A stretch of DNA of 41,021 nucleotides from Catajapyx aquilonaris (GCA_000934665.2 KZ538908.1:1-41021), one strand, 5' to 3'. Shown: positions 955-35,596, counted from the stretch's first letter. The notes: generated by a model from the letters alone, not told the origin. Made by a program: numbers and translations.

Positions 955-1036
955 GCCTAGAAAAGAGCGAGCGAAGCGAGCGGTTTTCTAGGCCAGCGCC
1001 CTAGGAAAATACGAGCGGAGCGAGGGTTTTCCTAGT
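955..1036 (+). mobile_element. Helitron-like 3' terminus: two tandem hairpins ending in CTAG|T
   Basis: Stems ggcctagaaaa/ttttctaggcc and ctaggaaaa/ttttcctag with gagcgRagcgag loops; terminal CTAGT. Confidence 0.45.
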
Positions 1037-1074
1037 TTGATATTAACAGCTCAAATAGACATCCCTTTTTTTTT

Positions 1075-7693: not shown

Positions 7694-10600
7694 CTAACAG
7701 AATAAAATTAATAAACATGCACTGTAGTTGTCTTCAATTTTAAAAATCAGTAACACTAACTTCTGTCATTGCAACATATTTAACCACTACCTCACAATAA
7801 TTCTAAGACCGTTGACCTGGATTATACAAATTTGTTGTGCTCATTCTTTTGACCATTGCTAAGAGTGATTATGCATAGGTTTGTGTGCTTAAAAATAAGC
7901 AGCTTAAATCCAAAGTCACTAACCACTAAGAACATTTCAATTGGAACACCCTGTATGACTCTAAAACCATGCTTTAGTGCAACTAGAAAGAATGAACATC
8001 ATCACTTTGGATCCAGCTCCTATATTTCAGCCTTGAGGGGATGTAAGAGCTTGGTGGGGTGGCTAGTGCTGGTGGTGATAATGGTGGTCCTCACTTGCCT
8101 ACCTAGCATGCAGGGAGAAGCGAATGGGTCCAAATGTAATTTTGCACATTCTTTCCAGCTGCACTACGCCCCCCCCCCACCCACTTGCGCGCCTGCGGCG
8201 CAAATTGGTCCGCTCCCGCACAGGTCCTCCTCAGTCTCTGTAACTGTCCGAGGCCCAGTGCACCTGGCCACCCCACACTTATACTCCACTCTCCGATGCG
8301 AACAGAGCAAGTATTTTTACGCAAAAATTGGTCGGAGCGGGGTGGCATCCGTTTACAGAACCCGTGACATCATCGCTAAAGGTGTGGAGTATGAGAATGG
8401 GTCCTAGGTGACGTATCGTGAGAAAAGGCACTGAGGTGGGATTAGAGTAGATCCCGATTGTCACCAGGTGGGGGGAGGGAGCGCCAGAGAGGGGCTATTG
8501 TTCTCCGGCGGCTTAATGAGGAGCAGATGGACAAAGGTGGCACGTGCAAAAGTCGACTTTTTGCCAAGTCCAAAACGGCTGGGCATTTTGCGATTATGGG
8601 GATTTTTGGCATCGGTAAACCAGAGGCAAGAAATGCAACGGAATTTCGACCAGAGCTCTACGACCTCGGGAAGTGCGAAATCTTTTCTATCCTATATCCT
8701 ATATCTTTGTCGAAGAGGGGCTTTATCAGCCATCGGCTCTTTAGGGAGGAAGTTTGTTTTGCCTGGAACTCATTGCTTTCATTTTACTCTGCTCTTTGCG
8801 ATAGGATAGGGACGGAAGGAAGCGGCTGTGGCCTATTAATTACAGAAACAACTCTGGAATTTTCCTGGATGGACCGTGGGAAACCACAGAAAACCACGGT
8901 CAGAGTTGCCCGACCCGGGATTTGATCCCAGGACCTACCGATTAGCAGTCAGACACCATATCCCCTCCTCCAAACTGCTTCGGTTAGGCAGGTATGGTAT
9001 GGTATGGAGAGGCACTCTGCATCTCCTGATGCCCTCCACACCTTCTGGTTTTGCTCAGCTGCTCATGTACAGTCCCGCTCATAAAGAATGGTACGACTCT
9101 ATGGACGACGTGTTTCTTCTGACTATCCAGCATTATTCCCAACCTGATTTCGTCGTGACACTATGGACAACTTGTCCTAGATCTCTGGCGACCCATATGA
9201 CCCCCNNNNNNNNNNNNNNNNNNNCCCCCCCCCCCCCCGACTTTTTCTGAAATTTTTCATTACCAGAATGTTCAACCTGGTACAATGCTTACATAGATTT
9301 GAGATGAATTTTCCCCCTTAAATTTTCTCACTTTGCCTTGTTTTTTTCTTCTTTTTTTCTTGATTATAATTGCCTTTTCCCAGCCTTCCTCATGGCCCCT
9401 AAAAACACGCTGGTGACCCAGGGGTTGGGAACAGAATAAACATTTTGTTCATAGAGTCGTACCATTCTTTATGAGCGGTACTGTACACTGGGTAGATTCT
9501 GAATTACGGAATCAGTCCAACCCGTTGCTGACACTTTGAGAACAGTCCAATATTTCTGGGCACATGCTGTAATTCTTCACGGGAGATTTCACTACAGCAT
9601 GTGTCCAATTTCTGTAGACATTTCATGAAGTAACCAATTTCACTAAGGGGCTACGACATATATACCGGTCTGGAAACAAGCCCTCTTATCACATAGATCT
9701 TCAGAGTCCCACCCGGCCGCAGATCCCCTAAGTGAATGGAGCAACACCCCTACACTGCGGCGAATTTTTTTTACGATTATTCAGAACGGATGATGAGAAA
9801 ATGGATGCCTACAGGTCTCAGTGAAAAGGAATGAATGGACCATGGCTGTAGAAGACTCAGGTTAGGTCACTCCCCACCCACCCCCTGCCGAGGGATTACG
9901 CACCGGGTGCTCACTTGAGAGCGCCATGAGACATTTCCCAGAGCATTTATGTGGCGAACCTACCGGACTAAGGCTGAACTTTATAGGTACGAAGGGGAGG
10001 GCTACATGCTGGCCCAACAAGGCCGCAGGCGGCCATGTTGGGCCCCCCAATGTAGCCCTCCCCTTCGTACCTATAAAGTTCAGCCTTAGTCCGGTAGGGT
10101 CGCCACATAAATGCTCTGGGAAATGTCTCATGGCGCTCTCAAGTGAGCACCCGGTGCGTAATCCCTCGGCAGGTGATAAGCCCAGAAGATAGGGGTAGTG
10201 TCCGTGGGCTGGAATGGACCACGCCTACCAGATTTGAATTGGCGGTTTGGGAGTCTTGGTCCACCATGTTCCGCCACCAGATTCGATGTGTGCAGATTAG
10301 GAGTAAAAGTAACTAAAGGAAAGGGCCAAGCGCCGCAACTCAAGCCTAGTGGCACGCCACCTAACTACTGATATGCCGCTCTAAGGTCACGGGGGTTTGA
10401 GGGGGAAACCTATATGGAAAAAAAACCGGAGTTGCAGTGGGGTGGTGTCCTCCAGCTAATAAGGAGCCAGTAGCCGACAACTGCAGAAAGTGCATGGACC
10501 CGCCCTAATAAGTGACAGGGGAGAGGCAGTAGAGGCTGCCATGGTCCGCCAAGGTTGCTAGAGACATGTGCCAACATGCCCCAAGCAAAATGTGCCATCA

Positions 10601-13600
10601 TGCCCCATGGGCATTTTTGTACCTTTTGAGTCCTCCTACTCTTGAGTGACAAATCGGCATTTTTGCGATAGACCGGACATGAAGCGACGATTATTTTTTT
10701 CGTTAAATACCGCATTTGATCACACCAATCGGATGCTCAACATCTCTACTAAACAATGCCAACCTTAAAATTGGCCAGTGTTGCTGTTCTTTGGCACCAG
10801 CTGCTCATACGTTCAACTGTGCGCGCCAAAGGCATTTTGGTGTCTGGGGACACGCATGGCTTTTGGCACCTCTGTAAGCATTGCCATTCATTCGATCACT
10901 TCTCAAGTGTGTCTGTTGGATGCAGCTTCATGTCCTCTTTCGATTGGTGTGCTTAAATTGTCGGAGGGTGATCGCTGTGTGCTTCAGTTTCAGTAACTAA
11001 CCAGAGTCATCCGAAAGCTTTGGTTCGTTACCAAAAATTACAAAAAATTCATGTACACACCTTATGTCAATGATTTGGAGCGTCAAACTTGGAAACCTCT
11101 GTGGGAGTCGCGTAATACAGCAGTGTGCCAAGATTCAGCCCAATTCCATAACTCCATGTATTTATTTGGACGGTAACGAACCAAGCCAGTTTATAAGCAA
11201 ATCCACGCTCAATAATGCAGAAATTTTTATGAAATGGTTTTCAATGGCGCTGATTTCAGATCCGATGTCAGAAATTCAAAAATCAAAATGGTTAATCCAA
11301 TATGGCAGACAGCATGTGCAGAGAATTGGACAGATATACAGTATTAGCGTCAAAATTAGTTTACGGTGGCTTTAGAGGGCTCTGATTTCAAATTCAATGT
11401 AAAAAGTTACAAATCAAAGTGGCGCGATGTGTTATCCAGATATGCCCTGATGCTACCGCCGATTTTATTGGGAGGAAGGGGGAAAGATGCAGCTCTTCAA
11501 TGGTTCTTATTTATGATGCTGAAAACAAATTTTCACGAATCCTTCATGTTATAAACAGTGTTGCCTCTATTTACAATGCCACTGCAAGATGGGTGGTCCG
11601 GAAGTTAATTGTCTCTAGCAGTCAAGGTGGCAGGTGGTGGCAGCTAGTCTTTGGTTCTTCTCAGTCATGAGAGCCTCCCGCTTTTTATAGGCCGTAAATC
11701 AAAAAATTTGCATTTATCTGAATTTTTGCAGGTCTGAATTTACTGGAAAATTGACTGAAATGACCCATTTTCAAATACCTTCATTTATAGGCTTAGTAAA
11801 TTTTCATAGATGGTCACATTATAACTCCTTATACAGTCATATGCATATGCATTACAATGTGGTGCAGCTAAAATGGCTGTGCTACGTCCAGGAAACTCGA
11901 TACAAATAACATTGTCAAAATCATCACTCTCAGGCGATAATGACCGAATTAATTTGCCTGTAATTTCCTCTTACATCAGTCCTTGTTTTCGTGGTTTTAT
12001 GGGCACTTACGTGCCAAGAAATAATGTGTCTCTGATGACCCCAATGTCTAATATTATCGTAATGCGAATATTATGTAGATATTTGCAAGTTGGAAAATCT
12101 TTGGTTCGTTACTTTTTTTCTTGGTTCATTACCGAGAGTTTTGTTGCGCTATGATGCAAAGAAAAGCAGATACCAGTACGTCAAGGTGACCAATGGATTC
12201 CTCGCACTTTTTTTCTCTAGAGCATCTCTACACTGCCATCACGACCACTTAGAATTCGCAGTCATTATGCAATGTAACCTGGTGCAGAAATGCGTGTCCT
12301 CGAAACTTTGGTTCTTTACCGTGTTTGTTCTCGCTCCTCGGGCACTATCGAATGATATATTTTGTGTCGGATTTGTGGCAAAATTCAGCCCTCTGTACCT
12401 GGAACTCAATAGAAAAAAAAAGTATCCCCAAAGGTTTACCACAAGCATGGAAAATCACAATGAAAGTTGAAAAAAATCGTCTGAACCTTGGTTCCTTACC
12501 GCAAAAATGCCCAAATATTAAATGGCCATTTATACTGTCACTTTGTAGGCAGATGTTCTGCCTTGCAAACGCATTTTTGTTTTATTGCATTATTGTAGCA
12601 CTTCCTTTGGAAGAAAAAAGAAAAACTTACGCAAATGGTCAAAAACCGAAAAAATCGATACTGACACCGACAGTCTTTTGCAATTGAATTGAAAATAGGA
12701 TGTAATGTGGAGCATACCTATCTGCACCTGCCACGTAAGCATCAGGTCCGTGAACCTAATAGCCTCTTCACAAATTTGACTGTCATCATACCCCTGTAGC
12801 CATCGTGGCCCAGTCTCCCCTACTTTATCACATTTAGAACGTACAAGAGTATGTGTGGTCCTCTCTAGTACATCAATACATCAACATTTCTACCTCTGCT
12901 TTTCTGATGCTATGAAAATGGACCTCAGAATTACCCATACTGACACTAACAATAATTTACCTGAGTAACACCAATAATTCAAGCATTAACCAAAAAAATG
13001 CTGTGGTTCCCTTTGGACCAGCCTCTGATTCCCTGAAGTCCACAGAGCATAAGTGAAGAGTACTAATCTAACCTGGATTGTAAAAAAATAGAGCACTATC
13101 TCTCAAACTTTTTCGCTGAAGCCCATGTCAGGGAGGTAAAAACACTCTGAGGCCCACTTAAGTCACTCAATCCCACGAGAATTGCCTTTTCCATTAAAAA
13201 TAAAATACAGTGATACCTGTGTATTGCGGAATCACACAGGACCCCAAAAAACTTCCGTAATGGATAGGTTTCCACTATACTCAGATCAAGGACGTTACTG
13301 ATATTTTTTCCAATGAGAAAGATGGGAAGATGGGAGAGCAAAAATAAGCACCTTACCTCAATAAGTCAATATGGTGCAAAATCAGTCTATAAAGTAGCAT
13401 TTTTGTGAAATAGTCTGTTTTACCTGGGGCACAACACATCTAAAATGTGGCAGTTTCGGTGCAGTTGAAAATGTCCTCCTTGGAATACCCCTAACAAATG
13501 TTCCCCACCTTCTCCTTCCAATTTATTCTCTACTTAGAGATTCACGACACTTGCATCAACAGACACAGTTTTCCACGAAATTCTGTGCCTGTCCCGGAAA

Positions 13601-16600
13601 CTTCCCAGCCACCCATTTGAATCACTAAATTTTGCCACACCGACGTTTTTGGGCTATTAATTTTGCTTGCTCTATTGGACCATCGGTCCGGACACAGTCA
13701 ATACGTTGAGCCTGTGTCAACCTCTTCCTCCTTCCCGACATTTTAAAACTGGACTGAACAGTGAACTAAACTTGAAGGCAGGTCACATACGAATCACGCT
13801 TGCATCTTCTTGGCCCTCCCGCAAGCTGTCTTTCCGTTTTTCAACCAATAAGTTCCCCTTTCCTCACCTTTTACCTTCAAGGCCACAGGCCAGTAGCAAT
13901 TCCAGTAATTGTGACACATAGTATGTTGTCGCATCCTGGGAGGGCCGAGAGTGAACCCGGCTGAAGGGGATATTGCCTGCCCTTCACAGATCGTTCTGAT
14001 TTTTCCCCCGGCAAAAAGTAAGTCGCAGAATTTTGGAAATTTTTTAATGGTTTCAGCTGCACGTCCACATATCGGGAAATATGCGGTAGGGAGATGTGTG
14101 TATTTAAATTCGTGCAGTAAGTGTTTGTTTCAGGTTGTTTTAAATGAATGAAACCTTTGCCCTATGACGTCGCTCAATTAAAATATTACGCGAGTGGCGT
14201 AAATACTCGAAAGGTTTAATACTCAAAGGGTTAATATTCCTGCCCTGAATTTACCAAACTCCCCCCCCCCCAATAGGAGATATCCCCATGTCTTTCCTCC
14301 CCAAGGATAAGAATTGAATTGCCTGAAGTCATGCATCACATTCTTACCCAGGAGAGATGCAAAGTTGTAATACAATAATCTCAATGTCATACTTGGTGAA
14401 TTAAGTGGGCATGATTTTTATTGCAGATTTCTGTGCAGTAGAAGAACAGTTAAGCCGTATTTACATGTGAGCGATCTGACAAGCGATAACATCACTGAGT
14501 AACCAGAATTGTTTGCAGTGAAAATCGATTGTTACTTTCACCTCAAACAATATTGGTTACTGGGGTTACTCAGCGATGTTATCGCTTGTTGAAGACTTTG
14601 CTCGTCAAATTGCTCGCATGTAAACGTGGCTTAAAGGCACAAGCTTATCTAGGGGCACAAGTAATGCAAGCAGCAGCAGCATTTAAATATAAAAATTTGT
14701 AACTGTTCTTACCGGCTCTTCTTCATTTTGTGGAGCTTCACTCGTACTTTCCTAAAAAACAACATACCAACATTAATTTTGCACTCATTTTTGATAATGC
14801 AACAGTCAGTCTCACCTTCACAGACGTCTTCCACACTGGCAATTCCTGATCCTCGCACCTCCGTAACAAATATCGATAAACCATGAAGCCTGACTTGCCC
14901 TTGCAAGCCCAATACATCTCAACCCTGTACAAACCTACATGTAAAAGATGTTATTTAGTACTTCAACACAAATGTAGTATCAGGGACATACCATCATAAC
15001 GATAACCTTCTTCTGGAGCAAATGCACTACTCAGTTTGTACCCTCGGACAACCCTCACTGGGTTGCCTGTCTCGACACTCACACTCAAAGCCAGATTTCC
15101 CGAAGTCAGAGTCTGGTCCATGGATTGAGGGGCAGTGCGGAGGTTCTAAAGGAATAGCATTGGTGTCACTGACAAGTTAGCCCCACATGTAAGAAGAGTA
15201 TGTACATTTTGTTGCAAAATAACAACTATGAGTAATTTCCCGGATGCTTCCTTAGAAGGAGCATCATCATCAATGAAAAGTAATCAGAATTAAATGCAGC
15301 CGGAAAAGGCACCATTATTGCAGTTGGGGGGTGGGGGAGTGTTGACAATTAGGTGGAAAAACATAATTACTCTTTATGAAACTGATCACTGAACAGCTGC
15401 AACCATAACAATGAAGGCAAACTTGGTCAGGAAACCCAAGTCCCATATCCTCCTGAGACCTGGTGTTGTCATATGTCAACATCAGCTAAAAATAATTTGG
15501 CCCCAACTAGTGACGCCCACAGAACTGTAATCTGTTGGTATCCCATGATTACAATCTGGCCTCAATAAGTGTAGCCACCGAGTGTCGAATATCTGACTTT
15601 GGCCGCAAAAATTAAATCACTTATGAAAATGGTGGATGCCGCTGCTGAAGCTAGGCGCTCATCTGATAAGTTTTATTTTTTTACTCATATTTAGTGTGAT
15701 TTTCACAATGCAGTGAATGTCCTCGGATTCAGAAGGAATGCGTATTAGGAAATACGAAAAGATGTGTCTGTGACAATCTTTGCTGCTGTAGAGAACTGGT
15801 AATTTTCTTTTCTTTCCGATTCCATTTAAATCAGTGGTTCCCAACCTTTTCGTGGTGAAGCCCCCCTTTTCGTTTTCACCCAACACTCACCCCCCCCCCC
15901 CTCCTGTCCCCTTCCCCCCAGTCCCAATAAATTTCAGCAAGTTTCTTGAAAGGTATTTTTATAACTGAGGAATGAAAACATGTGAAGAGCACAGGGGAAA
16001 AAGGGGGAATGTCACACAAAAAATGTCCATGAAAAATCGAAGAAATAGCTTTATTTCTTCACGTGTCTAAAGAATAATAGGGATATCTTCACGTCATTAT
16101 ATGCAACTGTCCCTCTTGTACCCATGGAAAGCCTCCAGGTATAAGTGTCACCTGTGCTACTATTGTACTGTGCACTTGGCAGGAACCCCAACGGAATTTG
16201 ACATTCCCCCTTTTTTCCCTGTGCTCTTCATGTGGAAATAGGGGAAACAACAGAAGGGGGTAAGAAGCCCACCGCAGGAGGAATTTTTTGGGAGGGTTCA
16301 AGGTCAAACGAGTTTAGGTGAATGTCGCTGACAAAGTACAGTGGAATCCTCCTATACTGTAAGCACATCGGATACAAGCAAGTAGAAAAGTCGGTCCCTT
16401 CATATTTCCAGCGGCGCCAAGCGGAAGCACGTTACATTATTTTGCTCATTTCTCATGGCCTCACGCCCCNNNNNNNNNNNNNNNNNNNNNNCCCCCCCCC
16501 CCCCGGTTGGGAACCACTGATTTAAATGGACATCCGAAAAAAAATTTTTAGCTGAATGGGTTGTGACTTTTCTTTAAGTGGCTGTACCTAGACACGCATA

Positions 16601-19600
16601 AGGAAGTGTGCTTTGCACTATACAGATCAGTTTTAACCCTAATAAGACGGGCGTCACATAGAAAAATTCTGCTGGCGAAACTGTAGCATTTTTCCACTAT
16701 GTAACGAGGTTTCTGTGTGGGTTTTTAAATTTTCTCTCGTGTAAAAAAATCGCGAGTTTTGGACTACAAAATCGTGCATAAATAAACCGGATTAACCTGA
16801 TTAACTTGAATGAAATCATCTTTTTGCGGCCGCTAAAAAAAAAACTTCAAAAAAAACAAAATCCGACCTTGACCGGCAAATTTTTGGCATACATAGTTGC
16901 CCCCAAACCTCCTCAAGAGATTCCACCCTAAAATTAGTGCAAAAGATGATTCAATAGTTTTAAAATAAATAAATCATGTGTGTAAATGTCAATTATCTGA
17001 TGCCGGAGTCTGCGCACTTCAACCCCGGCCTCAGGCTCGCTGGACGGCGCATGCTCCCCGCCCCTTTTGAATGGCTGAATGTTCACATTTGTGAGGGAGT
17101 GTGTTTGTTTATCATTTCTGCTAAGTTCAGAGATGCCAAGGCTACATACCGATAATTTTTTGTCAAGCAGGCAGAGTGACAAAAAATTGGAGTAGGCGTG
17201 AAACATACGCCTCTGCGCCACCTTGTTATGCATATGAGAGTTTCCACTGCGGACGCATGAGAGGAGGGTCACAGAGATGGCCTCAGGATCAAGCCTGGAC
17301 ACTATACGATCTTATTCACTAGTGTTTTCAAATGTTGTCCCCAAGTCCCAACGAAAGAGAATTTTTTGCAGATACTTGCAAAAACGCGAAAAACCACCCG
17401 TCTTATTAGGGTTAAGCCATAATCTGAAATGACATGATGTGTGGTTGAAACCAGGGGGATACCATGAGAGAGGGATATTTTTTCCTATCCGCCATTGCTC
17501 TTGATGTCCCAGATGATGGGAACGTGCTCTGCAGAGGACTTTTGTGCAGTTCACACTTTCCCACACTTTTACAAGCATTTTATGACTCATCTACATGAAG
17601 GCTCCTAACTGGAAAAGCAGATTTCCCGCAAGCCATAAAAATCAGTCATATTTTATCCTAGTGATTATAATCACTAGGATGAAATATCTTCACAATTAGA
17701 AATAGCAAGCAACAAAACAGCATTATGATTAGCAGGGGATATACGTGGGTTGATTCATAATAGTCCAGGCCCTAAGCGTCTTAACCTTGCATTTTGGGAT
17801 AAGAAGGTGCCACTTGGCACATATGTTCCTTAGGCCTATAGGAGCAATTCCAGAGTTGCAGGCAACTGATCGGCCCCTTAGGTCACGAGTTATGCGGTGT
17901 TGCCAACATGGCCGGGGATGACCTGAGCGTTTTTAACGTTGCATTTTGTGATAAGAAGGTGCCGCTTGGCACATATGTTCCCTAGGCCTGTAGGAGTCGT
18001 TTGAGACATGGCGGCACTTGATCGGCTAATTAGGTCAGGAGTTATGCGGTGTTGCCAACCTGGTCCTGGACCTAAGTGTTTTGTACCATTTTTAACTTTG
18101 CATTTTGGGATTTTGGCAAGAATGTTCCCCCAGGCCTAGAGGTTCCATTTGAGAGTTGGTGGCACCTGATCTGCCCCTTAGATCACGAGTTATGCGGTTA
18201 TGCTTAGGTTCCGGACCAGGTTGGCAACACCGCATAACTCCTGACCTAAGGAGCCAATCAAGTGCCGCCATCTCTCAAATGGATCCTATACACCTAGGGA
18301 ACATGTCTGCCAAGTGGCACCTTCTCATCACGAAGTGCCGAGTTAAAACGCTTAGTTCCCTGATCAGGTTGGCAACACCGCATAACTCGTGACCTAAGGG
18401 GCCGATCAGTTGCCTGCAACTCTGAAATTGCTCCTATAGGTCTAAAGAACATGTGTGCCAAGTGGCACCTTCTTATCCCAAAATGCAAAGTTAAAAATGG
18501 TACAAAACGCTTAGGTCCAGGACCAGGTTGGCAACACCGCATAACTCCTGACCTAATTAGCCGATCAAGTGCCGCCATGTCTCAAACGACTCCTACAGGC
18601 CTAGGGAACATATGTGCCAAGCGGCACCTTCTTATCACAAAATGCAACGTTAAAAACGCTCAGGTCATCCCCGGCCATGTTGGCAACACCGCATAACTCG
18701 TGACCTAAGGGGCCGATCAGTTGCCTGCAACTCTGGAATTGCTCCTATAGGCCTAAGGAACATATGTGCCAAGTGGCACCTTCTTATCCCAAAATGCAAG
18801 GTTAGGCCTGATTTTTGCGCTTAGGGCCCGGACTATAAGTCATGCCGCGTATTTTTGTATTCAAAAATAGTAACTCATACAGAGATGACCTTGGCTGAGA
18901 TCTGAAAATCTGGCGATTACAATTTGATCTGGCATATAGATGTCGCTCATATCGCGAGGGGGGCAGGGAAACTTAGGGGGATCATGAGCCCCCCCACACA
19001 CACACACACCATCGCCCTAAGACGGCCGGACCCTGACGTGCTGGGACCTGTTGGACGCAGCATCCTGGACACTCGGAGATGAACAACACTGGAGCTTGCT
19101 CAAGAGTGTGGGACGAGTCAGAGCACTATGCTTAGGACTCGGAAAGACTGACAGGTCTCAGGAAGTTGGCATCTTCACTGGTTCCTCACCATCTCTTTGA
19201 GATGCAAAAGAGCCACCATTTTGCCTTCGCTAGGAACTCCATTGCATTGAGGGTGATGGTTTTTTCAAACGGTTTGTGGCGATGGATGACACATGGCTGC
19301 AGTCACAGTGTTCTGACTTGTCCCACACTCGAAAGCAAGCTCATGGGTTGTCCATCACCGAGTGTCCAGCATGCAGCGTCCAACAGCTCCATGAATTTAG
19401 AAATACGTGCCATGACTTATGAATCAATCCACGTATTTTAAAAACTGTTTTTCATGTCGAAACACATGGTCAAAACCAGGGATGGAAAAATTACCGCTTC
19501 CTTTCCCATCAGAACCGCTTCTTAAGCTTCCGCTACCGACAACCGCTTCGCAAATGTGGAAGCGCTTAAATACCACTACCGCTTTCAGAACCTATTCGAC

Positions 19601-22600
19601 AATATTCTGTTGCAACCGCTTCTCACTCAGTTGCAAATCCAGGAACCGCTGCGAGAAGCGCTTCTGTGCAGGGATGGAAAAAAGAACCGCTTCCTGAGAA
19701 GCGCTTCTCGCAGCGGTTCCTGGATTTGCAACTGAGTGAGAAGCGCTTCCACATTTGCGAAGCGGTTGTCGGTAGCGGAAGCTTAAGAAGCGGTTCTGAT
19801 GGGAAAGGAAGCGGGAATTTTTCCATCCCTGGCCTCTTCATTTTCTTGGGTGCTGGAGGTGATGTATGCTCAGAGTCGGACATGGTGCATCAGGCGCAGA
19901 AATCGTACTACCTTTCCGCTTGACCTTGCGCTCTGTTATGATGAAGCTGTGCCGCTGTGCGATGTCTTCCGGAAGCCAGTTTGACCAACATATGTCACCA
20001 TTTGACAATTTGCCCATTTGACTGTTTGTGCTCCAGTGTACACTTTTACAGGCAGTGTCGCAGTGAATATCCCCCTTGGGCGAAAAAGAACGAGGAACCG
20101 GTTAAGACACGAGAAGCGCTTCCGAAGAACCGGTAGCATCTTCAAAAAAGGCATCCGATTCCGCTTCTACAACCGCTCCCATGTTCGCAAAGAGCTACCG
20201 GTTACCGGATGCCAAGGGTACCGAGAAATACTGGAAGCGCTTCTTGTACCGGGTCCGGATCGGTATCATAGACGCGGTTCTTTTTCCATCCCTGGTCAAA
20301 ACATGGCATACCTTCGTTTACATTTGTTAATTGTACAGCCCAAATGTTTGTCCAGCCAAACTATGCATTTCATTTTCAGATCGTTAGAAATCTTGAAAGG
20401 CACAAAAACCAAAGAAAGCAAATTTTTGGTACAGATTGAGCCGATCCTTTATACTCAATAAATTCCAAAAACAGAAAATCTCCAAAATTCGAAAGTTTTT
20501 TAAAAGTTCTGATAATTGTCTCACCACAAATGAAAAATCCCATGCTATTGTAACATGACTAGCATCATTACCAGTCTCTCTACATACACAAAATTATTCG
20601 AGATTTATATAAAACTACCTTCAGCGTTTATGTGTACCACTTATGAAGTGTAAATGGATACTTTGGTGGACACCACAATGTTAATTTCGACTAAACCAGT
20701 GATGATACCCATCCCCCAACCATCCACATACCCACTCCAGACTCTCTCTCCCCCTCCTCTGTTTTAAGGGTCTGCAGTAGTAAAAATGCAGTAGAGCAAG
20801 ATGTCTCTTATGAGAGCTAGGGAAGGCAACCTACCAAATGTTTGTACAACAATCGAGAGCAGTTTTTGCCACCATTGCCACGATGCCATGCCTTGCCTTC
20901 CTGCCTCGCATTTGAACCATATAGACTTGTGACTACAAGGTCAACCTTTATCAAGTTTTGTGCTGAATTCCCATGCCCACACAGCTTACTGTGAGGTTTG
21001 CACTACATATGGGTAGGGGTCTCATTTAAAAATATTACACACAATACATATTTACTTTAGGTTTGGCCTTGGTTCCCTTGAGGTCTCTCCCTCCCTCTCC
21101 TGTGTAAGTGAAAACGTCACCATAGTCTGCGTTTTCCTCATATCCCCCAGAAAGTGCCAATGAGTAAGCACCATCACGGCCACGATGAATTCCTGCCACT
21201 GTTGGTGGGTGGATGCCATCGGCACTGCACAATGCGCGGTTCTTCCACCAGTGACCAACTTCAATTCCTGAAAATGGGCAATTTATTAGTCATTGAGATA
21301 CTAGTCATCATATTGTGCATTTTCTTGGGTCAAAGCAGCTCCCACCAACCTCCAGAATCACAACACAATAACATAGAGAGATAAGCAGCTTGGCAGGATG
21401 AGAAGGTGTCAATCTAGCAAGTGATAATTTCTGCAGTAATTACCTCATGTCAAACGCATGGGATGTGACCAGCAGCGTAACAACGTATTTCAGTGGGGGG
21501 TGGGGGGCGGGGGGTGGGGGGGGGGGAAGCAATTTGGTGCCCCCTCCCCCCAGAGCTTATTCAAAGGAATTTTTAGAACTGCACAAAAGGTATGTCCTAC
21601 TAGTCGTAATAGGGGAACTGAGAAAAGTGCCAATACGCCCGCCGCAGGAATTTAAGTGCATGTAATGACAAAGTATACAGTGTAATCCTCCTACAGTAAA
21701 TCCTAGATATAACACTCCTTTTTTTCCGGTCCCTTGATCATCCCCATAAGGCCCAATGGTAAATTTTTCCGCTTATAGTGCTTCCTGCTTTTAAAGTTTT
21801 TCCATATACTGCTCGATTTCCCAGGTCCAGAGATATTTATCACTCATACAACATCAATTTCCGTCGCTTTCCTCCCCATAATCACGATTATGGCAAGGAA
21901 AGTGATGGAAATGTTTTAAATTTCTAATTCGGTTACAGACGTTTTCAAATATTTTGCCGATTTCCCTCCTGTTCAGGGTTTACTTCTTGTCATAAGCAAA
22001 AACCACATGTCAATATGTGACTGTCACCTTTATTAATATTTTTATAGTTGAAAATGTAGGTTTTTGTCGATATTTTTAAAAGACAAAACAATTAAAATCT
22101 CCGCTTCCGTGGAACTTAGGACGCCCGTTCCTTTTTTGTTTTATAGCTCTTTTGCAGACGCTTTCAACTGTACCTTATTACACTTTTATGATGATGATGA
22201 TGATGATGATGATGGATACCCCATGATAGGTCCTCATTTAGTTGACAGTCTTTAATGATTGCCTGTTCTGTGATGGATTTTGATTGTGGGAGGAAATGGG
22301 AGAACCCCGAGAAAACCCACGCGAACACGGAGAGAACCCATCGAAACTCTATAGTCTCTATCCACATAAGTATCTTCTGTCCGACCCGGGGTTCGAACTT
22401 GGGACCTCAAAGGTGGAAAGCGGTGGCTATAACGACTAGGGGCCGTAGTCTGGTGTCTGGGGGTACGAGTCCCAGAAACGGTGGGGTAGCNNNNNNNNNN
22501 NNNNNNNNNNNNNNNNNNNNNNNNNNNNNNNNNNNNNGTCTCCTCACCCACTACCCCTCTGGGGAGCTCGGGATAGCGGCTACCACTCCTGGCCGCATTT

Positions 22601-25600
22601 CTGCGTGCCTGTGGCGTCACAGCACGCCTGGGCCAGCGGGAGCCCTCGACACACCCACATGTCAAGTCCCAGGAGGCAGCAAAAAAAGAGGAGGGCAGTC
22701 GGTTGGCAGTACTTTCTGTTCAGAAAAGAGAGAACGATGTACAAATTGGACAAAGTGCGACATGGAAGCTCTGGTCCTGCCGCTTTTGACTTTCAAAGGG
22801 AATCTCGGGAGGTGTAATGCAAAATTCACGTTCAAATTAAGTATTTTGGGTTCTTCATCTGCTAGGAAGACACATTTCCGGAAAAACCCTCAATCTCAAG
22901 CAGGTTTGAAATGCGGAGGTGCAAATTTAAAAAACTGAACCCTTTATGATAAGCCTCGATGAAGATATTACGTATAACCAAGAGGAGCTATAAGACAGTG
23001 ACTTGGACGCGAATTTCATGATCTATCACGTAAATAGAAATTATACAGTGTATATATCAATTGACTCGCTTTGCGAGCCGGGGGGGCGGAGCCCCACCGG
23101 ACCCCTCCGTGGGGCTGCGCCTGTATTCCGCCTAATCCATCCGGTTACAGAAATCAGTGACGTCACCGGTAGCGATGAGGAGTTTCCGAACGTGCCCTCT
23201 CTGACGTATCGTTCAAAACAGCGCTTGGGATGACAGGTGGGACCATCTGTGACGTATCATTCCAACGGCAGGTTTCAGCTGTGGGTTTGAGTGACAAGCG
23301 GGTGGAGAGGAGTGGGTGGTCCATTGTTCTCGGGGATCCGGGGGAGTTTGCGGATACATTAATTTCGCGATCTCGGGTTTGCGTCTACATTTAATTTGGC
23401 AATCTCCAAAACGGCTGGGAATTTTGCGATTATGAGGATTTTTGGCATCGGTATACCCGAAGCTAGAAATCCAACGGGGTATGTCCGAGATCTCTGCGAC
23501 GCCGGGAAGTGCGAAATCTTTTTCATCATCCTCCTCCTCGTCGGATAGGGGCTTTATATATATTAGAAGATGTTATAAATGGGGAGATGTGGTGGCCGAG
23601 ATGGTAATGTCTCGGCTTGCAGAGTGAAAGGTCTCAGGTTCGATCCCCGCCTGGGAGTTCCCTTTCACCTGCGTCAGGAGGGTCTCTGACCTGCACCTTG
23701 AATAAGGAGGATGTTCCAACAGCTCCCATTCCCATTTCTGAAGAAACTTTCCGAACAGCAAAGACCACATGACAGCAAGGGTTGTCGGGGAAGACAATGG
23801 GTTCCCTCTACAGCAAATCCTTCCTCTTAAGGCGAATTTCTGGGTGGAGATGATGTTGTAATTATGGTATTGCCGTTGCTTTGCTATTTTCAATGCCAAT
23901 TCCGTGCATGTCCATTATCGGTCCATATCCAACAGTTGTCACAGCTTCGACATGGGTCAGGTCGGTTGTAGTACGGGAGGGGGCCTTCTTTAAATTCTTG
24001 TACGAACCTTGCAATGGTAAGATACGGGAGCCAGAATCATCACACGTCTGCACAAGACCTTGATGGTGCTGTCTGGGTGGTGGTGGTGGTGGTGGTGGTG
24101 GTGCAGGACGTGCACGCAACTTTCGCTCTTACGGATGTTGCACCTCGGGTGTTTCACAGCGGGACGTCATAAAAGTATAAAGCTCAAGGTTTTTTTCACA
24201 GTTTTTAACTAAGTACTAGGAGTATCCATGGCCAAAATTTCAAATTTTCGCCGGCCTTGGTGGTCTGGTGGTTAGCCCGCTCACCCCTGGTCACAAAGTT
24301 GTGGGTTCGAACCCGGCCGAGGTCGGTGACTTTTCTCCGGGTGGTAGAAAAGTGAGAGTGCGCCTTCCTTCAGAGGGGAAGTAAAGCAGTCAGTCCCGTG
24401 TGCTTGTCACATTGCGCGAGTGCATGTTAAAGATCCCCAGGGTGACCAACATTCCAGAAGGAGGAAACACCCTCTAGCATCGGTGTTGAGCCTTAGCGGC
24501 AGAAATAGGCCGACATTAAGCCCCACTGAACAGGCCCCCCCTTCGAGATATTTGACCTTGAAATCCGCAAATTTCGAACTTTTTCTAACTGCGGACCGAA
24601 CAATCGGCCAGAAGCGCTTGCAAGCCCGGATTTATTTCACCATGGCTGGATACCCTTCCAGTCAGAGTCCTTGAAAAGAAATATTCCACCCTGGGATTTC
24701 AAGCCCTTTTAGTTTTACAGGCCTTTGAAATTGGAAAAATTTCTCGTTTTGATAGCTATTGAAGCCCATTAAAGTCCCAGTTACAAAGGTTTTATCCTAC
24801 ATATTCTGAAAGGCCAAGATCTCCACTTTCAGGAAGTGAAAACCAGAACATCCTACCTTGAATAGATACCAAATAGTAGCCTTTTTTCAGAACCCTTACA
24901 AATGCTCGTTTTTGCTCGCCGTAGTGAAAAAAAATGAGTATAAATCCAACATGGTGGCAGATAAAAAATTAACAAAAGGTTTCAGCAAGTCAATATCAAG
25001 GCCACCCATGGTGACAATATTAAAAATTAACTAGATGGTCGAGCAACCATCAAATATATAATTGGCTGATTTCACATGGAATGACCCGTACGTGTAAGTA
25101 AAAATCTATGTGATAACAGTATAGCTGGTACTCTGCAGTCCAGTCCTCATCGCATAGAACCTAGATTGTAGGTGGCTGGGGGCGAAGGGGTTAATACACT
25201 TTTGTACATGACAGTCAACAGTACATTACAGTCAACTCCCGATGTACCAGCCTCGGTTATGACAGACTCTTAGTTATAGCAGACTCAAAAGGCTGGTCCC
25301 ACCAGTCTTCCGTAAGGACCTGTGTATTTTCACTCTGGCCCCTCTGGCTGCCGGGGACAACAAGGAAATTACAAGAAAATTACACATTTTTTCTTGGCTC
25401 TGCGTAATTTACGGATTAGCTAATTTTTCATTTCGTGGATAGTTTCATTAATAAGTATGCAGTAGTGTACATTATAGGCATACAGGAGGTAGAAAACTTT
25501 GTGTATGCCTATTCGTTGCAAAAATGACAATTTGGCTATAACTGACCTCGGGTATAACAGACCCAAAGTCTCTTGAAGTCCATTATATCCAGAGTCTGCT

Positions 25601-28600
25601 GTATAACTAATACAACTGACCTTCAATGTCTCCATACACATTAGGCCTCTTCTTCCTAGGACTTTGAACTGGAGATGGCTTGAAATCATCGTCCTGATCT
25701 AGACCTTCTGCCAAAGAGCCACCCTACAAAAAAGTGCAACAATTGAAATGATGTAGTAACAAACAGTTGGGCCAGCTTTAAAAGTGAAACTGGCATAAAA
25801 TCCTAACTACAGTCTAGTGAAACCTGTCAATCAACTTGCTTCATTATATTAAAACTTTCTGAATGGAAGAGGCTCCATTATATGAGGTCATTGCATTAAA
25901 TATTCTCTGTTGGGAGGAGCAAAAGTCCCACAATCCGTAGCCTCAATCCCTGGGAAAGGACCCACAACAAGCACTTAAAAACTATTCTGGAAAAGTTTGT
26001 GGAGATGAGTCCCCTCCTACCACTGCTCCCACTACCTCTCCCCAAGATAGAGTCACATGTATCATGGCTAGTTACAAGGAGTGGGAAAAGCCTCTGCTAG
26101 GTTTGGAGTATTTGGAGACGAAGAGCTAACTGGAGTTTTGTAGCAGTTTCTGCCAGTCTTTTGTGGAGTAACAGGGAGCTAGGTAATTCAGGTCGAGCTG
26201 CACCAATGGCATGATACATGGGAAGATCTACTGCACACATGCACACAAAATAATCAAGGTTTTGTCCCATAAAGGGGGAGCCATCAATGGTCAGGTGATA
26301 CAATACCTAGGGCCGATTTCTCGAACAGTGGTTCAAGTCAGTTTGAACTGGGTATGTGTCTACAGGTGGATTTCATTTAACCTCCTCTTCCAAGTTTGCG
26401 CATTTCACGAACGTTTTCCAACCCTCGGTTATTAGCCAAACCCCATTCCGTTAGAATTGCGCCGTTGCCACATTTTGAGTCCTCCCCATCGCCCAAAACC
26501 GGTTTGAAATGCTGCCCGAGTGTTGAGGGCCAGAGGTTCTTAACTTGGGGTGCGAGCAAGGTGCACCCCTGGACTTAATCTAACTATGAACTTATTCAAT
26601 CACCCCTGGTATAGGGGGTACGACAAGGACCTACTGTCTTCAAATGGGTGCAGAGGCCCGAAAAGGTTAAGAACCCCTGGTTTAGGGGGCGTAAAGAAAC
26701 GCTAGTCAGCAAGTATTGAAGGTGGAGAGAGCGACATTTGAAAGGTGCCAGTGGCTTAAAATCTCAAGACGAGCAGTAGTTGATTTATAGGGGAGACAAT
26801 GTAATTGCGCCTGATGGAATGCTGTTTACACAGTACACAAGTATGAAACTGGATGTGAAATGAATTTTGTGTTTAATCCTTTGTCTCCTGCAGTATTCTG
26901 AACGCTTCATGTGGTGGTTTAAAAAGAGCGCCCTAGGTGAAAATCACTGGATCTGGCACCATTGGTTTCACTCTCGATTCATGCACAAGATTGCGAGATT
27001 GCAGATTGCGAGATTGTCATTCCTCCCCTACGCGCACAACAAGCCTCGTGCTGGGTGGTCAGTATACTATTCTGTAGATGTGTTTGTCTCAAACAAATGC
27101 AACTTTGTTTTTGTGTTAGAAATTTCAGCATATGTAGGTACTGTACTGTACATGTCCAATAATGGCACCCAGCATGTGTTCACTTATCTGGGCAGGATGC
27201 TGTGAGTTAGGTATGGTTAGGACATTCTATAGTACTGGTACCCTGATGGCCATGATGAACATTGTGTGGCCAGAGGACGTTAGGGTGAAACTAATACACT
27301 ACCCCTGAAATAATTCTCAAAAAACTGTCGCCTTGGACAGTCGAAATCGAGAACGGAAAGTCTCCTCATTGTAGGTGTCAAGGGATGGTGTGGTACCTGA
27401 TTACCCTGAATATGCGAGGAGGAGGCAAGACTACATCGAAGACGTCGATGAAAAACTCATCTTCTTCGGATGAGTCTGCGTCCAGACCGACATTCTCATC
27501 TCCCCTCCCAGCACTGCAAACCTGGGGTATTCCCGATAACAGCCGGCAGTCGGGCCATCAGATGTGAACCCAGTTTAAACCTCATCCTGGCTTTACTTTT
27601 GCCTCAAGAAATGGAAATTTCTCTGAACTGGGATTAAACCACAGTTGAACCGGGTTTACATTTGAACCACTGTTTGATAAATCAGCCCCTAGTGCTATTT
27701 CAATCTGCTAAATATTGGAAGTTGTTGCTGGATGTAGATATGTTCTGACAATTTTCAGAAAGGGCGACCTAGCCACAGCTCCTCTCCCTCCCACCCACCC
27801 AATTAGCTTCTAGTACAGTAAAACTTCTATAAGTCGAATCTCCATGGGACAGGGAAAAAACTTCGAGTTATAGAAGATTCGAGTTAGAGAAGTTTGGCGT
27901 TTTTTAAACACAGAACTCTATAAGGAAGCCTACCTTTATATCCAGCGATGAAAGGTGTTCAATACTTAAAAATTACTGTCACTATCACACTTACAATGTT
28001 CCTCGTTGTTTTGTTGTAAAAAAATCTCCATTATGGACATTTGCCTCCTCTTAGATTCAAGGATTCAATTGTCACAATTGAGTCAAACACTACTTTCAGT
28101 ACGGCTGGTAGACGGAGATCAGGAAATGGAGCCTTTCTGTACTATCAGTCCACCAAGAATTGTCGTAGCGGCAGCGCACGAACTACAGTTACGAGCACTT
28201 CTCCCCCCGGAAGTGCTCGTAGACTGTAGTTCGTGCGCTGCCGCTACGACAATTCTTGGTGGACTGATAGTACATGTGGCCTACTCTCGACCCTTCGGCT
28301 GGGAAATGAGACAATTTTCCTTACTCGCCAACATGACCTTCGAATTAGGCAGACTGAAAATGCATTGATATCCCATCGTAAGGCCCTGCCTGCACTTCGA
28401 GTTATGGAGAAATTCGAGTTAGGGAAGTCCATTTCCTATTATTTTATATTGGGACCAACCAAGCTCATAATTTTTACTGTGTTCCATCTGCTCCTGCCTC
28501 TGATTGGTGCTTTATGAAACAGCATCATGTCACATCCCTTTCTAAAAATGGTTCAACTCTACAAAAATGCCTAGCTATTTAAATAAACAATATTAATTTT

Positions 28601-31295: not shown

Positions 31296-31925
31296 TGTCT
31301 ATGCCCACAAAATGCAACAAGTGATGATGGGGACGGCAGAAGGGGGACGGATGAGAGTGAAGGGGAATTCCAGGAGTCCAGCGGATGAACCGATGAAGAG
31401 TATGCAATGGAGTTCGTAGCTAGCTCAGAAGCACGCTCAGAAGGGACGCCATCATACCAGCACGAGCACGAACGAGCACGAATCCGGGTCTGTCCGCTCG
31501 TGGTCCGCTCTATCGGAACCGGCAGCAGACACCTTTTGGCGGGAGCACACCACAAGGCAACACAAAAAAAGTACGTTAGCGCCTAGCGGAAGCTCGAAGC
31601 TGGCAAGGGTGGCCAAGTGCAGGAGGCCGTAACGCAGGAGTGTCACACAGGATTGCACAATGTTCGTTTATTAAATCGTTAATATCTGGGTAATAATTAT
31701 AAATTCAAATTATAATTTCATATCGTATATATTATGTTAACTATTTTTTTTATTTTGGCTCCAACGCTCTGGCGGAGTCGGGCTGGACTGGCCAGTGGCC
31801 ACGGACTGGCGGAGTGGGAGTATACTATATGGCCGCAGTTTCAACACGAGTTTCAATCACGTGGTTTAAATCCTTTATTTAACACATGATTTCAACATTT
31901 GTCCGGCTCCGGCAGCCAGCGTAAT
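31296..31925 (-). promoter_or_regulatory. CpG-rich 5' UTR/promoter region of the SRA gene
   Basis: Visibly CpG/GC-rich blocks (31380-31660, 31755-31830) immediately upstream of the ATG, in contrast with CpG-poor intronic sequence. TSS not determinable. Confidence 0.5.
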
Positions 31926-32730
31926 TTGCTTATGTTTTGAATAGTAGCTACCAAAAATGAGGAGGCCTCTTATGCTAGTATGCACCTATACACATGTTTG
32001 CCTTTCAAACAACATAAAATAACTGGCAACTTTTAAGTATTTCCATAAGGACAACGCGACAACCACGGTATAGTTCCAGGGTTCTTTGCTGCCACACGTA
32101 GGCCTACTCGAAGAAAACAAAAAACACGCACCGTATCTCCGTATGACTATAGTTTAAGGATTAAGAAAATGGGCAGTCTCTCCAGGCAGCTTGTAAAATT
32201 GTTGACGAAATATTACTATTGGCACCTATTGGCAAGAGCTCTTCCTGTTGGCAATGTGCTTTCATTCTACCCCTTCTGGCCTTATAATGACAAACAATCC
32301 TGTATAGTACAATATTACAATAGGCCTACTGTAGAACAGGGTGGACTTGGCCACAATACCAAAAATGTCACGAATAAAATATTTAAAGTAACACGTCATG
32401 AAAATGAGACTTCAAATCACGTCATGCAGCTTTTAGCATGTACACACACACAAAAAATCACCTGTGCCAACAACCCAACATAGGTACGCAAGGAAATAAA
32501 TGTTAGAGGCAACAGGCGACCTCATGGAAGCAACCAATTTTCATAGCTCATGCCAAATTTAATAACAAATAAAGAATTTGTGAAGCAAGCATCTTGTCCA
32601 TTTTTAGGATATAAAGGTGAACCATTTCAGTGGTGGGGAATATTTATTAGTTTATATTCGAAGGTTGGATTTTAAATAGTGGCAACACTGCGATAGTTTC
32701 AAAGGAAATCTTTAATTAACTTGTTATATA

Positions 32731-35149: not shown

Positions 35150-35596
35150 ATATTGATTTAGGCTGTACCATAGGTCTTGCTCAAGTAATTCTGAAGTGTT
35201 GTCCAGAATGGCTCATAAAGAAATTATACTAATTGGAAAAAAATAAAATAAAAACTAAAACCATCCTCACAGACTGATTTTCGCTCTTGAAAATGCAGAA
35301 TCCCATCGAAGGCGACCCTAAAAAATTCACCAAATTACGTCTATACATGAAAATAAAACATTAGTTAAAATCAGTATCTCACCAATCATATATAGAAATT
35401 CAATAAAGGCACTCAATATTGAATTATCTAATTTCAGAAAACAGACTTATATGAAGTGAGTCATGGTACTGTTTTCAGAAAGGATACTTATAAGGATTAA
35501 TTTGGAAATTGCTTAAGTAAAACTTGTGTGGGTGCGCATGGGGNNNNNNNNNNNNGGGGGGTACAGCCTAAACCAATAATTATTATATATATATAG

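What the first reader, a model, noticed from the sequence alone, without database searches (positions are those of the whole stretch)
21110..21155. Cytosine-reading Asp of the SRA pocket (UHRF1 D469) is replaced by Asn
Seen: codons GGA TAT GAG GAA AAC GCA GAC give GGYEENAD, versus GGYEDDVD in human UHRF1. Both stacking tyrosines (Y466 and Y478 equivalents) and T479 are kept. Known: D469 hydrogen-bonds the Watson-Crick edge of the flipped 5mC. Inference: an intact aromatic sandwich with an amide in place of the carboxylate may shift specificity (for example to T, 5hmU or oxidised cytosines) or weaken 5mC binding, so this may read a non-canonical base.
Basis: partly seen in the sequence, partly recalled or inferred. 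Interest (0 to 1): 0.72.

Follow-up and report, generated by a model that had tools for sequence, protein, structure and literature searches.

The report
Asn-pocket SRA-only methylcytosine reader gene
An expressed animal gene for a small protein whose only known domain is an SRA methyl-cytosine reader really has Asn where human UHRF1 has Asp469, but the same swap is common in related proteins and most likely still reads cytosine.

Summary
Minus-strand codons at 21145..21125 read GGYEENAD, and the Asn codon AAC lies at 21133..21131. HMMER aligns this stretch column for column with GGYEDDVD of solved UHRF1 SRA chains (E 2.5e-22). DNA contigs, and a spliced contig from a second sample, carry the exon without a difference.

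The gene is not UHRF1. It is a 7+-exon, spliced member of an SRA-only "YDG/UHRF1-like" family of invertebrates and fungi.

In that family the site is only ever Asp or Asn: 82 D and 30 N among 112 relatives. All 16 bivalve proteins have N, and all 16 arthropod proteins have D. The window's protein groups weakly with barnacles, so its Asn is probably an independent change.

Published structural work argues that this Asp must act protonated to bond N3 and N4 of 5mC. Asn is therefore a built-in mimic, and PvuRts1I has Asn at the same place.

The best reading is a conservative, tolerated variant that still reads (methyl)cytosine. A shift to another base is not excluded, but nothing supports it. I rate it a new member of a known kind, of modest interest.

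The parts
31215..31570 (-). Exon 1 (5' limit is the end of the RNA-derived contig, not a mapped start). ATG at 31295 with an in-frame stop just upstream. Encodes [11 protein letters not shown]..., a diverged copy of the family's N-terminal helix motif.
   Evidence: X5 contig record 20 piece 31215..31570; donor gtaagt; translation
29331..29465 (-). Exon 2, basic KRKRR-rich linker
   Evidence: X5 record 20 piece 29330..29465; acceptor ..ccag and donor gttgtc
25621..25723 (-). Exon 3, ...[26 protein letters not shown], leading into the SRA domain
   Evidence: Sequence and splice sites; weak tblastn match to homologues. Its 103 nt fill the gap 259-361 of X5 record 20; this piece was not itself listed.
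21056..21267 (-). Exon 4, first part of the SRA domain: thumb V130, stacking Y149, E150-E151-N152-A153, Y161, T162, E164
21131..21133 (-). AAC codon for Asn152, the UHRF1 Asp469 equivalent
14992..15145 (-). Exon 5, SRA finger N178-L179-R180 (NLRTAPQS...) through ...GYRYD
   Evidence: tblastn; Pfam SAD_SRA profile 75-120; X5 record 18 piece 14990..15118
14816..14934 (-). Exon 6, end of the SRA domain (GLYRVEMYW...PVWKTSVK), after a 57-nt intron
   Evidence: X5 record 18 joins 14932 to 14990; Pfam profile 118-148; splice sites
14713..14751 (-). Predicted exon 7 ([13 protein letters not shown]), start of an acidic tail. Further 3' exons and the stop codon were not found.
   Evidence: AG/GT sites; frame. 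Inferred: no listed read piece shows it.

Best explanation
The window carries an intact, transcribed gene for a small nuclear protein of at least 281 aa. Its only recognisable domain is an SRA base-flipping reader. It belongs to the SRA-only 'YDG/UHRF1-like' family of invertebrates and fungi, not to UHRF1 itself.

Its most likely mode of action is that of other SRA domains. A thumb residue (V130) and a finger (N178-L179-R180, on a loop 6 residues longer than UHRF1's) hold the duplex. A 5-methylcytosine is flipped into a pocket between Y149 and Y161. Backbone groups and the side chain at position 152 then bond its Watson-Crick edge.

At that position Asn replaces Asp. The Asp has to be protonated to bond both N3 (an acceptor) and N4-H (a donor) of cytosine. 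The Asn carboxamide (N-H donor, C=O acceptor) does the same job without needing a proton. So the swap is conservative: cytosine/5mC reading is kept, possibly with altered affinity or pH dependence.

Shown here: the sequence, the splicing, family membership, and the D/N-only pattern at the site. Inferred: the hydrogen-bond geometry, 5mC binding, and any downstream role.
For: Gene and expression:
- All six introns have GT-AG splice sites.
- Contigs of run X5 join exons 6-5 and exons 4-2-1 exactly at those sites.
- The open frame runs from an ATG that has an upstream in-frame stop.

Domain:
- Pfam SAD_SRA scores above the cut-off on three exon frames, covering profile positions 5-148.
- E 2.5e-22 to solved UHRF1 SRA chains.

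Constraint:
- The protein keeps 61 of 64 columns that are at least 95% conserved in the family. This is on a par with an odonate member (62/65) and an ostracod member (60/64).

The site itself:
- 82 D and 30 N among 112 relatives, with no third residue.
- N in 16/16 bivalve proteins (12 genera), 4/18 gastropod, 1/3 annelid, 1/2 hemichordate, 1 bryozoan and 1/9 fungal. D in 16/16 arthropod proteins.
- At least 3 D/N changes are forced by well-supported branches, and 12 are needed on the best tree.

Chemistry and precedent:
- PMC3946040 (passage) states that the carboxylate must be protonated to bond N3 and N4, and that the same holds for mouse UHRF1 Asp474.
- PMC4157451 (passages) places Asn217 of PvuRts1I at the location of UHRF1 Asp469 and SUVH5 Asp418.
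- In one study, UHRF1 D469G kept wild-type binding to hemimethylated DNA (PMC5012860, passage).

Context:
- CpG o/e is 0.62 against GpC 0.99 in the window, as expected of a genome with germline CpG methylation.
- An SRA-only fungal relative binds hemimethylated DNA selectively (bioRxiv 10.1101/149385, passages).
Against: - No binding data exist for any Asn-type SRA of this family.
- The window's pocket loop is unusual beyond the Asn. E151 replaces a D found in 110 of 112 relatives. A153 stands where relatives have I, V or L in 105 of 112. R127P and K186M hit columns that are 89-90% conserved.
- The protein sits on a long branch, 0.42-0.52 against a median of 0.08-0.10.
- Among representatives at 50% identity Asn is rare: 2 N and 136 D among 138 readable of the top 150. 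So the Asp is clearly the preferred state.
- An Asn amide could in principle flip and pair with thymine-like bases.
- D469G was reported as loss of function by its first authors, as cited, and D469G/R491A is used as an SRA-dead mutant.
- All 16 arthropod relatives have D, so the Asn here has no known close orthologue to show that it is old.
Confidence: 0.68

Rival explanations
1. Changed specificity. The amide lets the pocket accept a base other than 5mC, for example 5hmC or oxidised cytosines, or thymine-like bases such as T:G or 5hmU. The protein would then read a non-canonical mark or a deamination product.
For: An Asn amide can present donor and acceptor in either order (chemistry, inference). 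PvuRts1I, with Asn at this place, prefers 5hmC, and its N217A variant changes selectivity (PMC4157451). Neighbours of the site are also unusual here: E151 and A153.
Against: The backbone carbonyl of the conserved Thr also bonds N4 and the Thr is kept, which disfavours an O4 base. Asn equals the protonated Asp that the canonical pocket is said to need. Asn is fixed in all 16 bivalve proteins sampled, with the rest of the pocket unchanged. No positive evidence for another ligand was found.
Confidence: 0.14
2. Relaxed or weakened reader. The lineage's copy is drifting, and the Asn is one of several mildly damaging changes that lower 5mC affinity. The protein would then act mainly through non-specific DNA binding or its tails.
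For: Long terminal branch. Twelve departures from columns at least 85% conserved, including the N-terminal motif (Q11, K15, A19, A23), R127P, D151E and K186M.
Against: The frame is intact over 7 exons, splice sites are canonical, and spliced contigs exist. 61 of 64 near-invariant columns are kept, like other arthropod members. Arthropod branches are long in general: odonate stem 0.71-0.91, whitefly 0.74, ostracod 0.49-0.81.
Confidence: 0.15
3. Sequencing or assembly error, or a private allele.
For: The nearest available relatives (barnacles, insects) all have Asp.
Against: Contigs of three runs from two samples and two studies carry the exon with no difference. One of them is spliced, and so comes from RNA, not from the assembly.
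Confidence: 0.02

Closest known systems
Metazoan/fungal SRA-only 'YDG domain-containing / UHRF1-like' proteins (e.g. P0004 Amphibalanus, P0003 Elysia, P0007 Mactra; database names only, uncharacterised)
   Same: SAD_SRA is the only Pfam domain. They share a size of roughly 300-500 aa, an N-terminal region ahead of the SRA domain, the finger sequence NLRTAPQS, the motif TYTGEGGRD, and an acidic/Ser-rich tail. Identity over exon 4 is 69-75%.
   Different: The N-terminal helix motif is diverged. E151 is unique among the 112 relatives. The Asn is shared with only 30 of 112, and with none of the 16 arthropod proteins.
Cryptococcus neoformans Uhrf1-like protein (gene uhf1, CNAG_00677)
   Same: It has an SRA domain without the Tudor and RING domains, and it binds hemimethylated DNA selectively in vitro (bioRxiv 10.1101/149385, passages). 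Tremellomycete relatives (Kwoniella, Naematelia, Cutaneotrichosporon) are among the hits.
   Different: Those fungal relatives have Asp at the site. Orthology of the window's gene to CNAG_00677 itself was not tested, because that sequence was not fetched.
Human/mouse UHRF1 SRA domain (PDB 3DWH, 3CLZ, 2ZKD, 3FDE and others)
   Same: Same fold family (E 2.5e-22 for exon 4 alone; 1.6e-44 for an Asn-type relative). The stacking Tyr pair, the Thr, the thumb Val and the finger Arg are all aligned.
   Different: No UBL, TTD, PHD or RING domain. Asn for Asp469, Glu for Ser481, a finger loop 6 residues longer, and a UHRF1-specific insertion is absent.
PvuRts1I SRA-like domain (5hmC-dependent restriction enzyme)
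   Same: Asn217 occupies the place of UHRF1 Asp469 next to an aromatic sandwich (PMC4157451).
   Different: It is a bacterial nuclease fusion with Trp/Trp stacking and only a distant fold-level relation. It is an analogy, not membership.

Membership tests
SAD/SRA (YDG) domain, Pfam PF02182 | Profile match above the curated cut-off over the whole domain | tested here: met
   72.7, 45.6 and 32.0 bits (cut-off 30.7) on the frames of exons 4, 5 and 6, covering profile positions 5-73, 75-120 and 118-148 of 148
SAD/SRA (YDG) domain, Pfam PF02182 | Two aromatic residues that sandwich the flipped base, plus the Thr whose carbonyl bonds N4 | tested here: met
   Y149, Y161 and T162 align with the UHRF1 residues.
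SAD/SRA (YDG) domain, Pfam PF02182 | Asp that bonds N3/N4 of the flipped cytosine | tested here: not met
   Asn152. However, the column holds N in 30 of 112 family members, so Asp is not strictly defining.
SAD/SRA (YDG) domain, Pfam PF02182 | Selective binding of methylated DNA with base flipping | not testable with these tools
   Needs a binding assay or a structure
UHRF1/UHRF2 (canonical E3 ligase) | UBL, tandem Tudor, PHD and RING domains around the SRA domain | tested here: not met
   The transcript-defined N-terminal 107 aa carry no domain. No such Pfam family was found in 44 + 99 frames of the window, including all 102 minus-strand frames of at least 38 aa downstream of the SRA exons. 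Relatives carry PF02182 only. Caveat: the 3' end of the gene is unresolved, and exons shorter than 38 aa were not scanned.
SRA-only UHRF1-like family of invertebrates and fungi | SRA as sole domain, the finger NLRTAPQS, and TYTGEGGRD | tested here: met
   Best hits are all from this family. 61 of 64 near-invariant columns are kept.
SRA-only UHRF1-like family of invertebrates and fungi | Conserved N-terminal motif (consensus S.YE..R.KNIE.N..IL.ELGL) | tested here: inconclusive
   The window has [30 protein letters not shown] and R are kept; N, N, L and G (91-97% conserved) are replaced.

The most novel reading that the evidence does not exclude
Asn-type SRA pockets are a functionally distinct, repeatedly evolved class of reader. 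They occur in all sampled bivalves, in Haliotis and in scattered other lineages, and independently in this arthropod-like animal. Because the amide needs no proton and can pair in two orientations, such readers would bind independently of pH, or would accept oxidised or deaminated derivatives of 5mC. In this animal, the extra E151/A153 changes would mark a further retuned pocket.
Probability: 0.12. Interest if true: 0.6.

Novelty: new member of a known kind. Interest (0 to 1): 0.3.

Why it matters
The finding gives a natural test of a point that structural papers only infer: that the base-reading Asp of SRA domains works in its protonated form. If Asn-type SRA domains bind 5mC normally, that inference is confirmed. 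It would also show that D469-type 'dead' mutants need care.

The work also draws attention to a widespread, uncharacterised SRA-only reader family in invertebrates. This family sits beside the canonical DNMT1-UHRF1 system, and its role in gene-body methylation is unknown.

For this window itself, the result is a correct annotation and a caution against reading a new base specificity into one conservative substitution.

Tried and rejected
- Whole-genome search for a canonical UHRF1 or a second SRA gene: no genome is held for this window. Whether the animal also has an Asp-type UHRF1 is therefore open.
- 3' end of the gene: no homology (tblastn) and no Pfam match downstream of 14713. The pieces of X5 record 18 below 14815 were not listed, so the stop codon was not found.
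- RNA runs: no listed holder is on record as RNA. The RNA origin of run X5 is inferred only from its spliced contigs.
- N-terminal motif of the family: no Pfam match at E <= 1. The ESM Atlas look-up of residues 1-60 of P0010 gave only scores of 0.79 or less and short structural matches, with nothing usable.
- Literature: no paper in the library holds 'UHRF1' together with 'D469N'. A six-term search for D-to-N/A mutants returned unrelated proteins. One search failed on a term that was too short.
- Earlier notes of this scan: nothing near the place or like the sequence.
- Co-variation: position 150 tends to be D in Asn-type proteins (21 of 30) and E in Asp-type proteins (77 of 82). This was not corrected for shared ancestry, and the window (E150) does not follow it, so I draw nothing from it.
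- Structure prediction was not run. The spliced protein is not a letter-for-letter product of the window, and a fold of a relative would add little to E 1e-44 against solved SRA chains.

Full report
**Observation.**
- The + strand at 21125..21145 reverse-complements to GGA TAT GAG GAA AAC GCA GAC. This lies inside the stop-free minus-strand frame 21035..21289.
- phmmer against all PDB chains matches 16 SRA chains, the best being human UHRF1 at E 2.5e-22.
- The alignment places 'ggyeenad' on 'ggyeddvd' and '[10 protein letters not shown]' on 'ftytgsggrd' without gaps.
The Asn codon is at 21133..21131.

**Is it real DNA, and is it expressed?**
- Five runs hold the stretch. I laid three of them on 12001..32000.
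- Contigs of X1 and X4, which may be the assembly's own sample, cover the exon and its flanks with 0 other letters.
- Run X5 comes from another sample and study of the same coded organism. It holds 41% of the sampled words of a 501-base query in which the exon makes up 42%.
- X5 record 20 lies on 21056..21266, 29330..29465 and 31215..31570. X5 record 18 lies on 14815..14932 and 14990..15118.
- These are exon-to-exon joins at the GT-AG sites I predicted, so X5 holds spliced, RNA-derived contigs, and they carry AAC.
- No variant is listed in the exon. Contigs can hide rare alleles.

**Gene model.** The minus-strand exons are:

| Exon | Coordinates | Note |
|---|---|---|
| 1 | 31570..31215 | ATG at 31295, in-frame stop upstream |
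| 2 | 29465..29331 | |
| 3 | 25723..25621 | |
| 4 | 21267..21056 | carries the Asn codon |
| 5 | 15145..14992 | |
| 6 | 14934..14816 | |
| 7 | 14751..14713 | predicted only |

- Introns are 1.7-5.9 kb, plus two tiny ones of 57 and 64 nt.
- The model gives 281 aa and is open at its 3' end. Later exons and the stop codon were not found.
- Pfam finds SAD_SRA on the frames of exons 4, 5 and 6 (profile positions 5-148) and nothing else in 44 long frames.
- A second scan covered 99 frames: the minus-strand frames of at least 38 aa downstream of the SRA exons, plus three upstream exon frames. It found no family at E <= 0.01.
- The gene therefore has no UBL, Tudor, PHD or RING domain as far as it can be seen, and it is not a UHRF1 orthologue.

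**Family.**
- A word-seeded search with exon 4, restricted to longer proteins, gave 112 hits at E <= 1e-5 among 177 candidates.
- All 112 have PF02182 as their only precomputed Pfam family. They are 135-980 aa long.
- They come from molluscs, echinoderms, hemichordates, cnidarians, annelids, arthropods, amphioxus, flatworms and fungi. They are named 'YDG domain-containing' or 'UHRF1-like'. The best identity is 69-75%.
- Eight of them, rescanned at E <= 1, show only SAD_SRA.
- The family shares an N-terminal motif (consensus S.YE..R.KNIE.N..IL.ELGL), the finger NLRTAPQS, the motif TYTGEGGRD and variable acidic tails.
- A profile of 40 members, searched against 1.84 billion representatives, found 5998 proteins at E <= 1e-3 and 1072 at E <= 1e-30.
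- An Asn-type bivalve member aligns to UHRF1 SRA at E 1.6e-44, with a finger loop 6 residues longer.

**The site across relatives.**
- In a MAFFT alignment of the 112 hits plus the window's protein, the column holds D in 82, N in 30, plus N in the window's protein. No other residue occurs.
- By named taxon:

| Taxon | N | D |
|---|---|---|
| Bivalves (12 genera) | 16 | 0 |
| Gastropods | 4 (Haliotis, Gigantopelta) | 14 |
| Arthropods | 0 | 16 |
| Echinoderms | 0 | 8 |
| Cnidarians | 0 | 3 |
| Hemichordates | 1 | 1 |
| Annelids | 1 | 2 |
| Fungi | 1 | 8 |
| Bryozoan | 1 | 0 |
| Unnamed | 6 | 24 |

- Among the top 150 representatives at 50% identity, the site reads D in 136, N in 2 and is unreadable in 12. 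This counts one regex mis-hit, read by eye, as D.
- So Asp is the usual state, while Asn is a recurrent and locally fixed alternative.
- I built a quick ML tree of 110 rows. Three of the 113 rows (P0096, P0099, P0103) were left out for at most 80% coverage, and the four columns around the site were removed.
- That tree needs 12 D/N changes, of which at least 3 are forced by starred branches.
- On a reduced set with the mixture model, the window's protein joins the barnacles (SH-aLRT 84) inside a barnacle-thrips-odonate group (SH-aLRT 92).
- The reduced set had 68 of the 110 rows. I dropped 42: near-duplicates, unnamed rows, and long rows including Bemisia.
- Every member of that group has Asp, so the Asn here is probably an independent change.
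- The support is weak and the branch is long (0.42-0.52).
- Earlier notes of this scan also call the genome arthropod-like, and they report a DNMT3 paralogue in it. Those notes are unchecked.

**Is the copy under constraint?**
- It departs from 12 columns that are at least 85% conserved. These include four in the N-terminal motif, plus R127P, D151E (D in 110 of 112) and K186M. A153 stands where 105 of 112 relatives have I, V or L.
- Yet it keeps 61 of 64 columns that are at least 95% conserved, like other arthropod members. It is also intact and spliced.
- I read it as a functional but fast-evolving copy.

**Mechanism.**
- PMC4157451 (passages): the side chains of UHRF1 Asp469 and SUVH5 Asp418 bond N3 and N4 of 5mC; a Thr main-chain carbonyl also bonds N4; PvuRts1I has Asn217 at the same location.
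- PMC3946040 (passage): to bond both N3 and N4 the carboxylate must be protonated, and the same must hold for mouse UHRF1 Asp474. The 5-methyl group touches only C-alpha and C-beta of Ser486.
- bioRxiv 10.1101/2019.12.17.880419 (passages) lists the same contacts.
- It follows, by inference, that Asn supplies exactly the donor/acceptor pair of a protonated Asp.
- It also follows that Glu164 in place of the Ser need not disturb the methyl contact.
- D469G was reported as loss of function by its first authors, but it bound hemimethylated DNA like wild type in PMC5012860 (passage). D469G/R491A is used as a dead SRA in PMC12704277.
- The SRA-only Uhrf1-like protein of Cryptococcus binds hemimethylated DNA selectively (bioRxiv 10.1101/149385).
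- SRA-without-RING homologues are noted across eukaryotes (bioRxiv 10.1101/2023.01.30.526367).
- CpG o/e of the window is 0.62 against GpC 0.99, which is compatible with a methylated genome.

**Verdict.**
- The substitution is real and sits at the base-reading position.
- It is best explained as a conservative, repeatedly tolerated Asp/Asn alternation in an SRA-only reader that still recognises (methyl)cytosine (confidence about 0.68).
- A change of ligand (0.14) or a weakened reader (0.15) remains possible. An error is practically excluded.
- Of all papers cited I saw only the passages named. Avvakumov et al. 2008 is known to me only through those citations.

Noticed in passing
window 1036-3573 (+): Three adjacent frames (1036-2199, 2203-2724, 2728-3573). 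The first two match Pfam RVT_1 (profile 3-97 and 106-205). This is a LINE-like reverse transcriptase broken by stops, downstream of the SRA gene.
   Followed up: partly
window 22006-22672, 23340-24006, 27342-28675: Intron stretches with summed contig depth of 25,000-50,000 in the DNA runs, against about 20-30 on the exons. These are very high-copy repeats inside the gene's introns.
   Followed up: no
window 19420-19890: Frames on opposite strands encode nearly the same peptide (e.g. [28 protein letters not shown] on both strands). This is an inverted duplication or palindromic element in the 5.9-kb intron.
   Followed up: no
window 14935-14991 and 14752-14815: Two very short introns (57 and 64 nt) sit next to introns of 1.7-5.9 kb in the same gene. 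The 57-nt one is confirmed by a spliced contig.
   Followed up: partly
relatives P0001-P0112, N-terminal ~30 residues; window exon 1 (31295 downward): The SRA-only family shares a conserved N-terminal helix motif (S.YE..R.KNIE.N..IL.ELGL) with no Pfam family and no usable Atlas match. The window's copy has lost four of its most conserved residues.
   Followed up: partly
relatives versus UHRF1: The DNA-inserting finger of the SRA-only family (..[15 protein letters not shown]..) is 6 residues longer than UHRF1's NKR finger. The family also lacks a UHRF1-specific insertion later in the domain.
   Followed up: no
window 21487-21550 and 22190-22215: A long G-rich tract (runs of G broken by single T or C), and a run of GAT/ATG-type triplets that gives poly-Asp, poly-Met or poly-His in different frames. 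Both are intronic low-complexity sequence.
   Followed up: no
window 9206-9224, 16470-16491, 22491-22537, 34398, 35544-35555: Runs of N (assembly gaps), two of them inside introns of the SRA gene.
   Followed up: no
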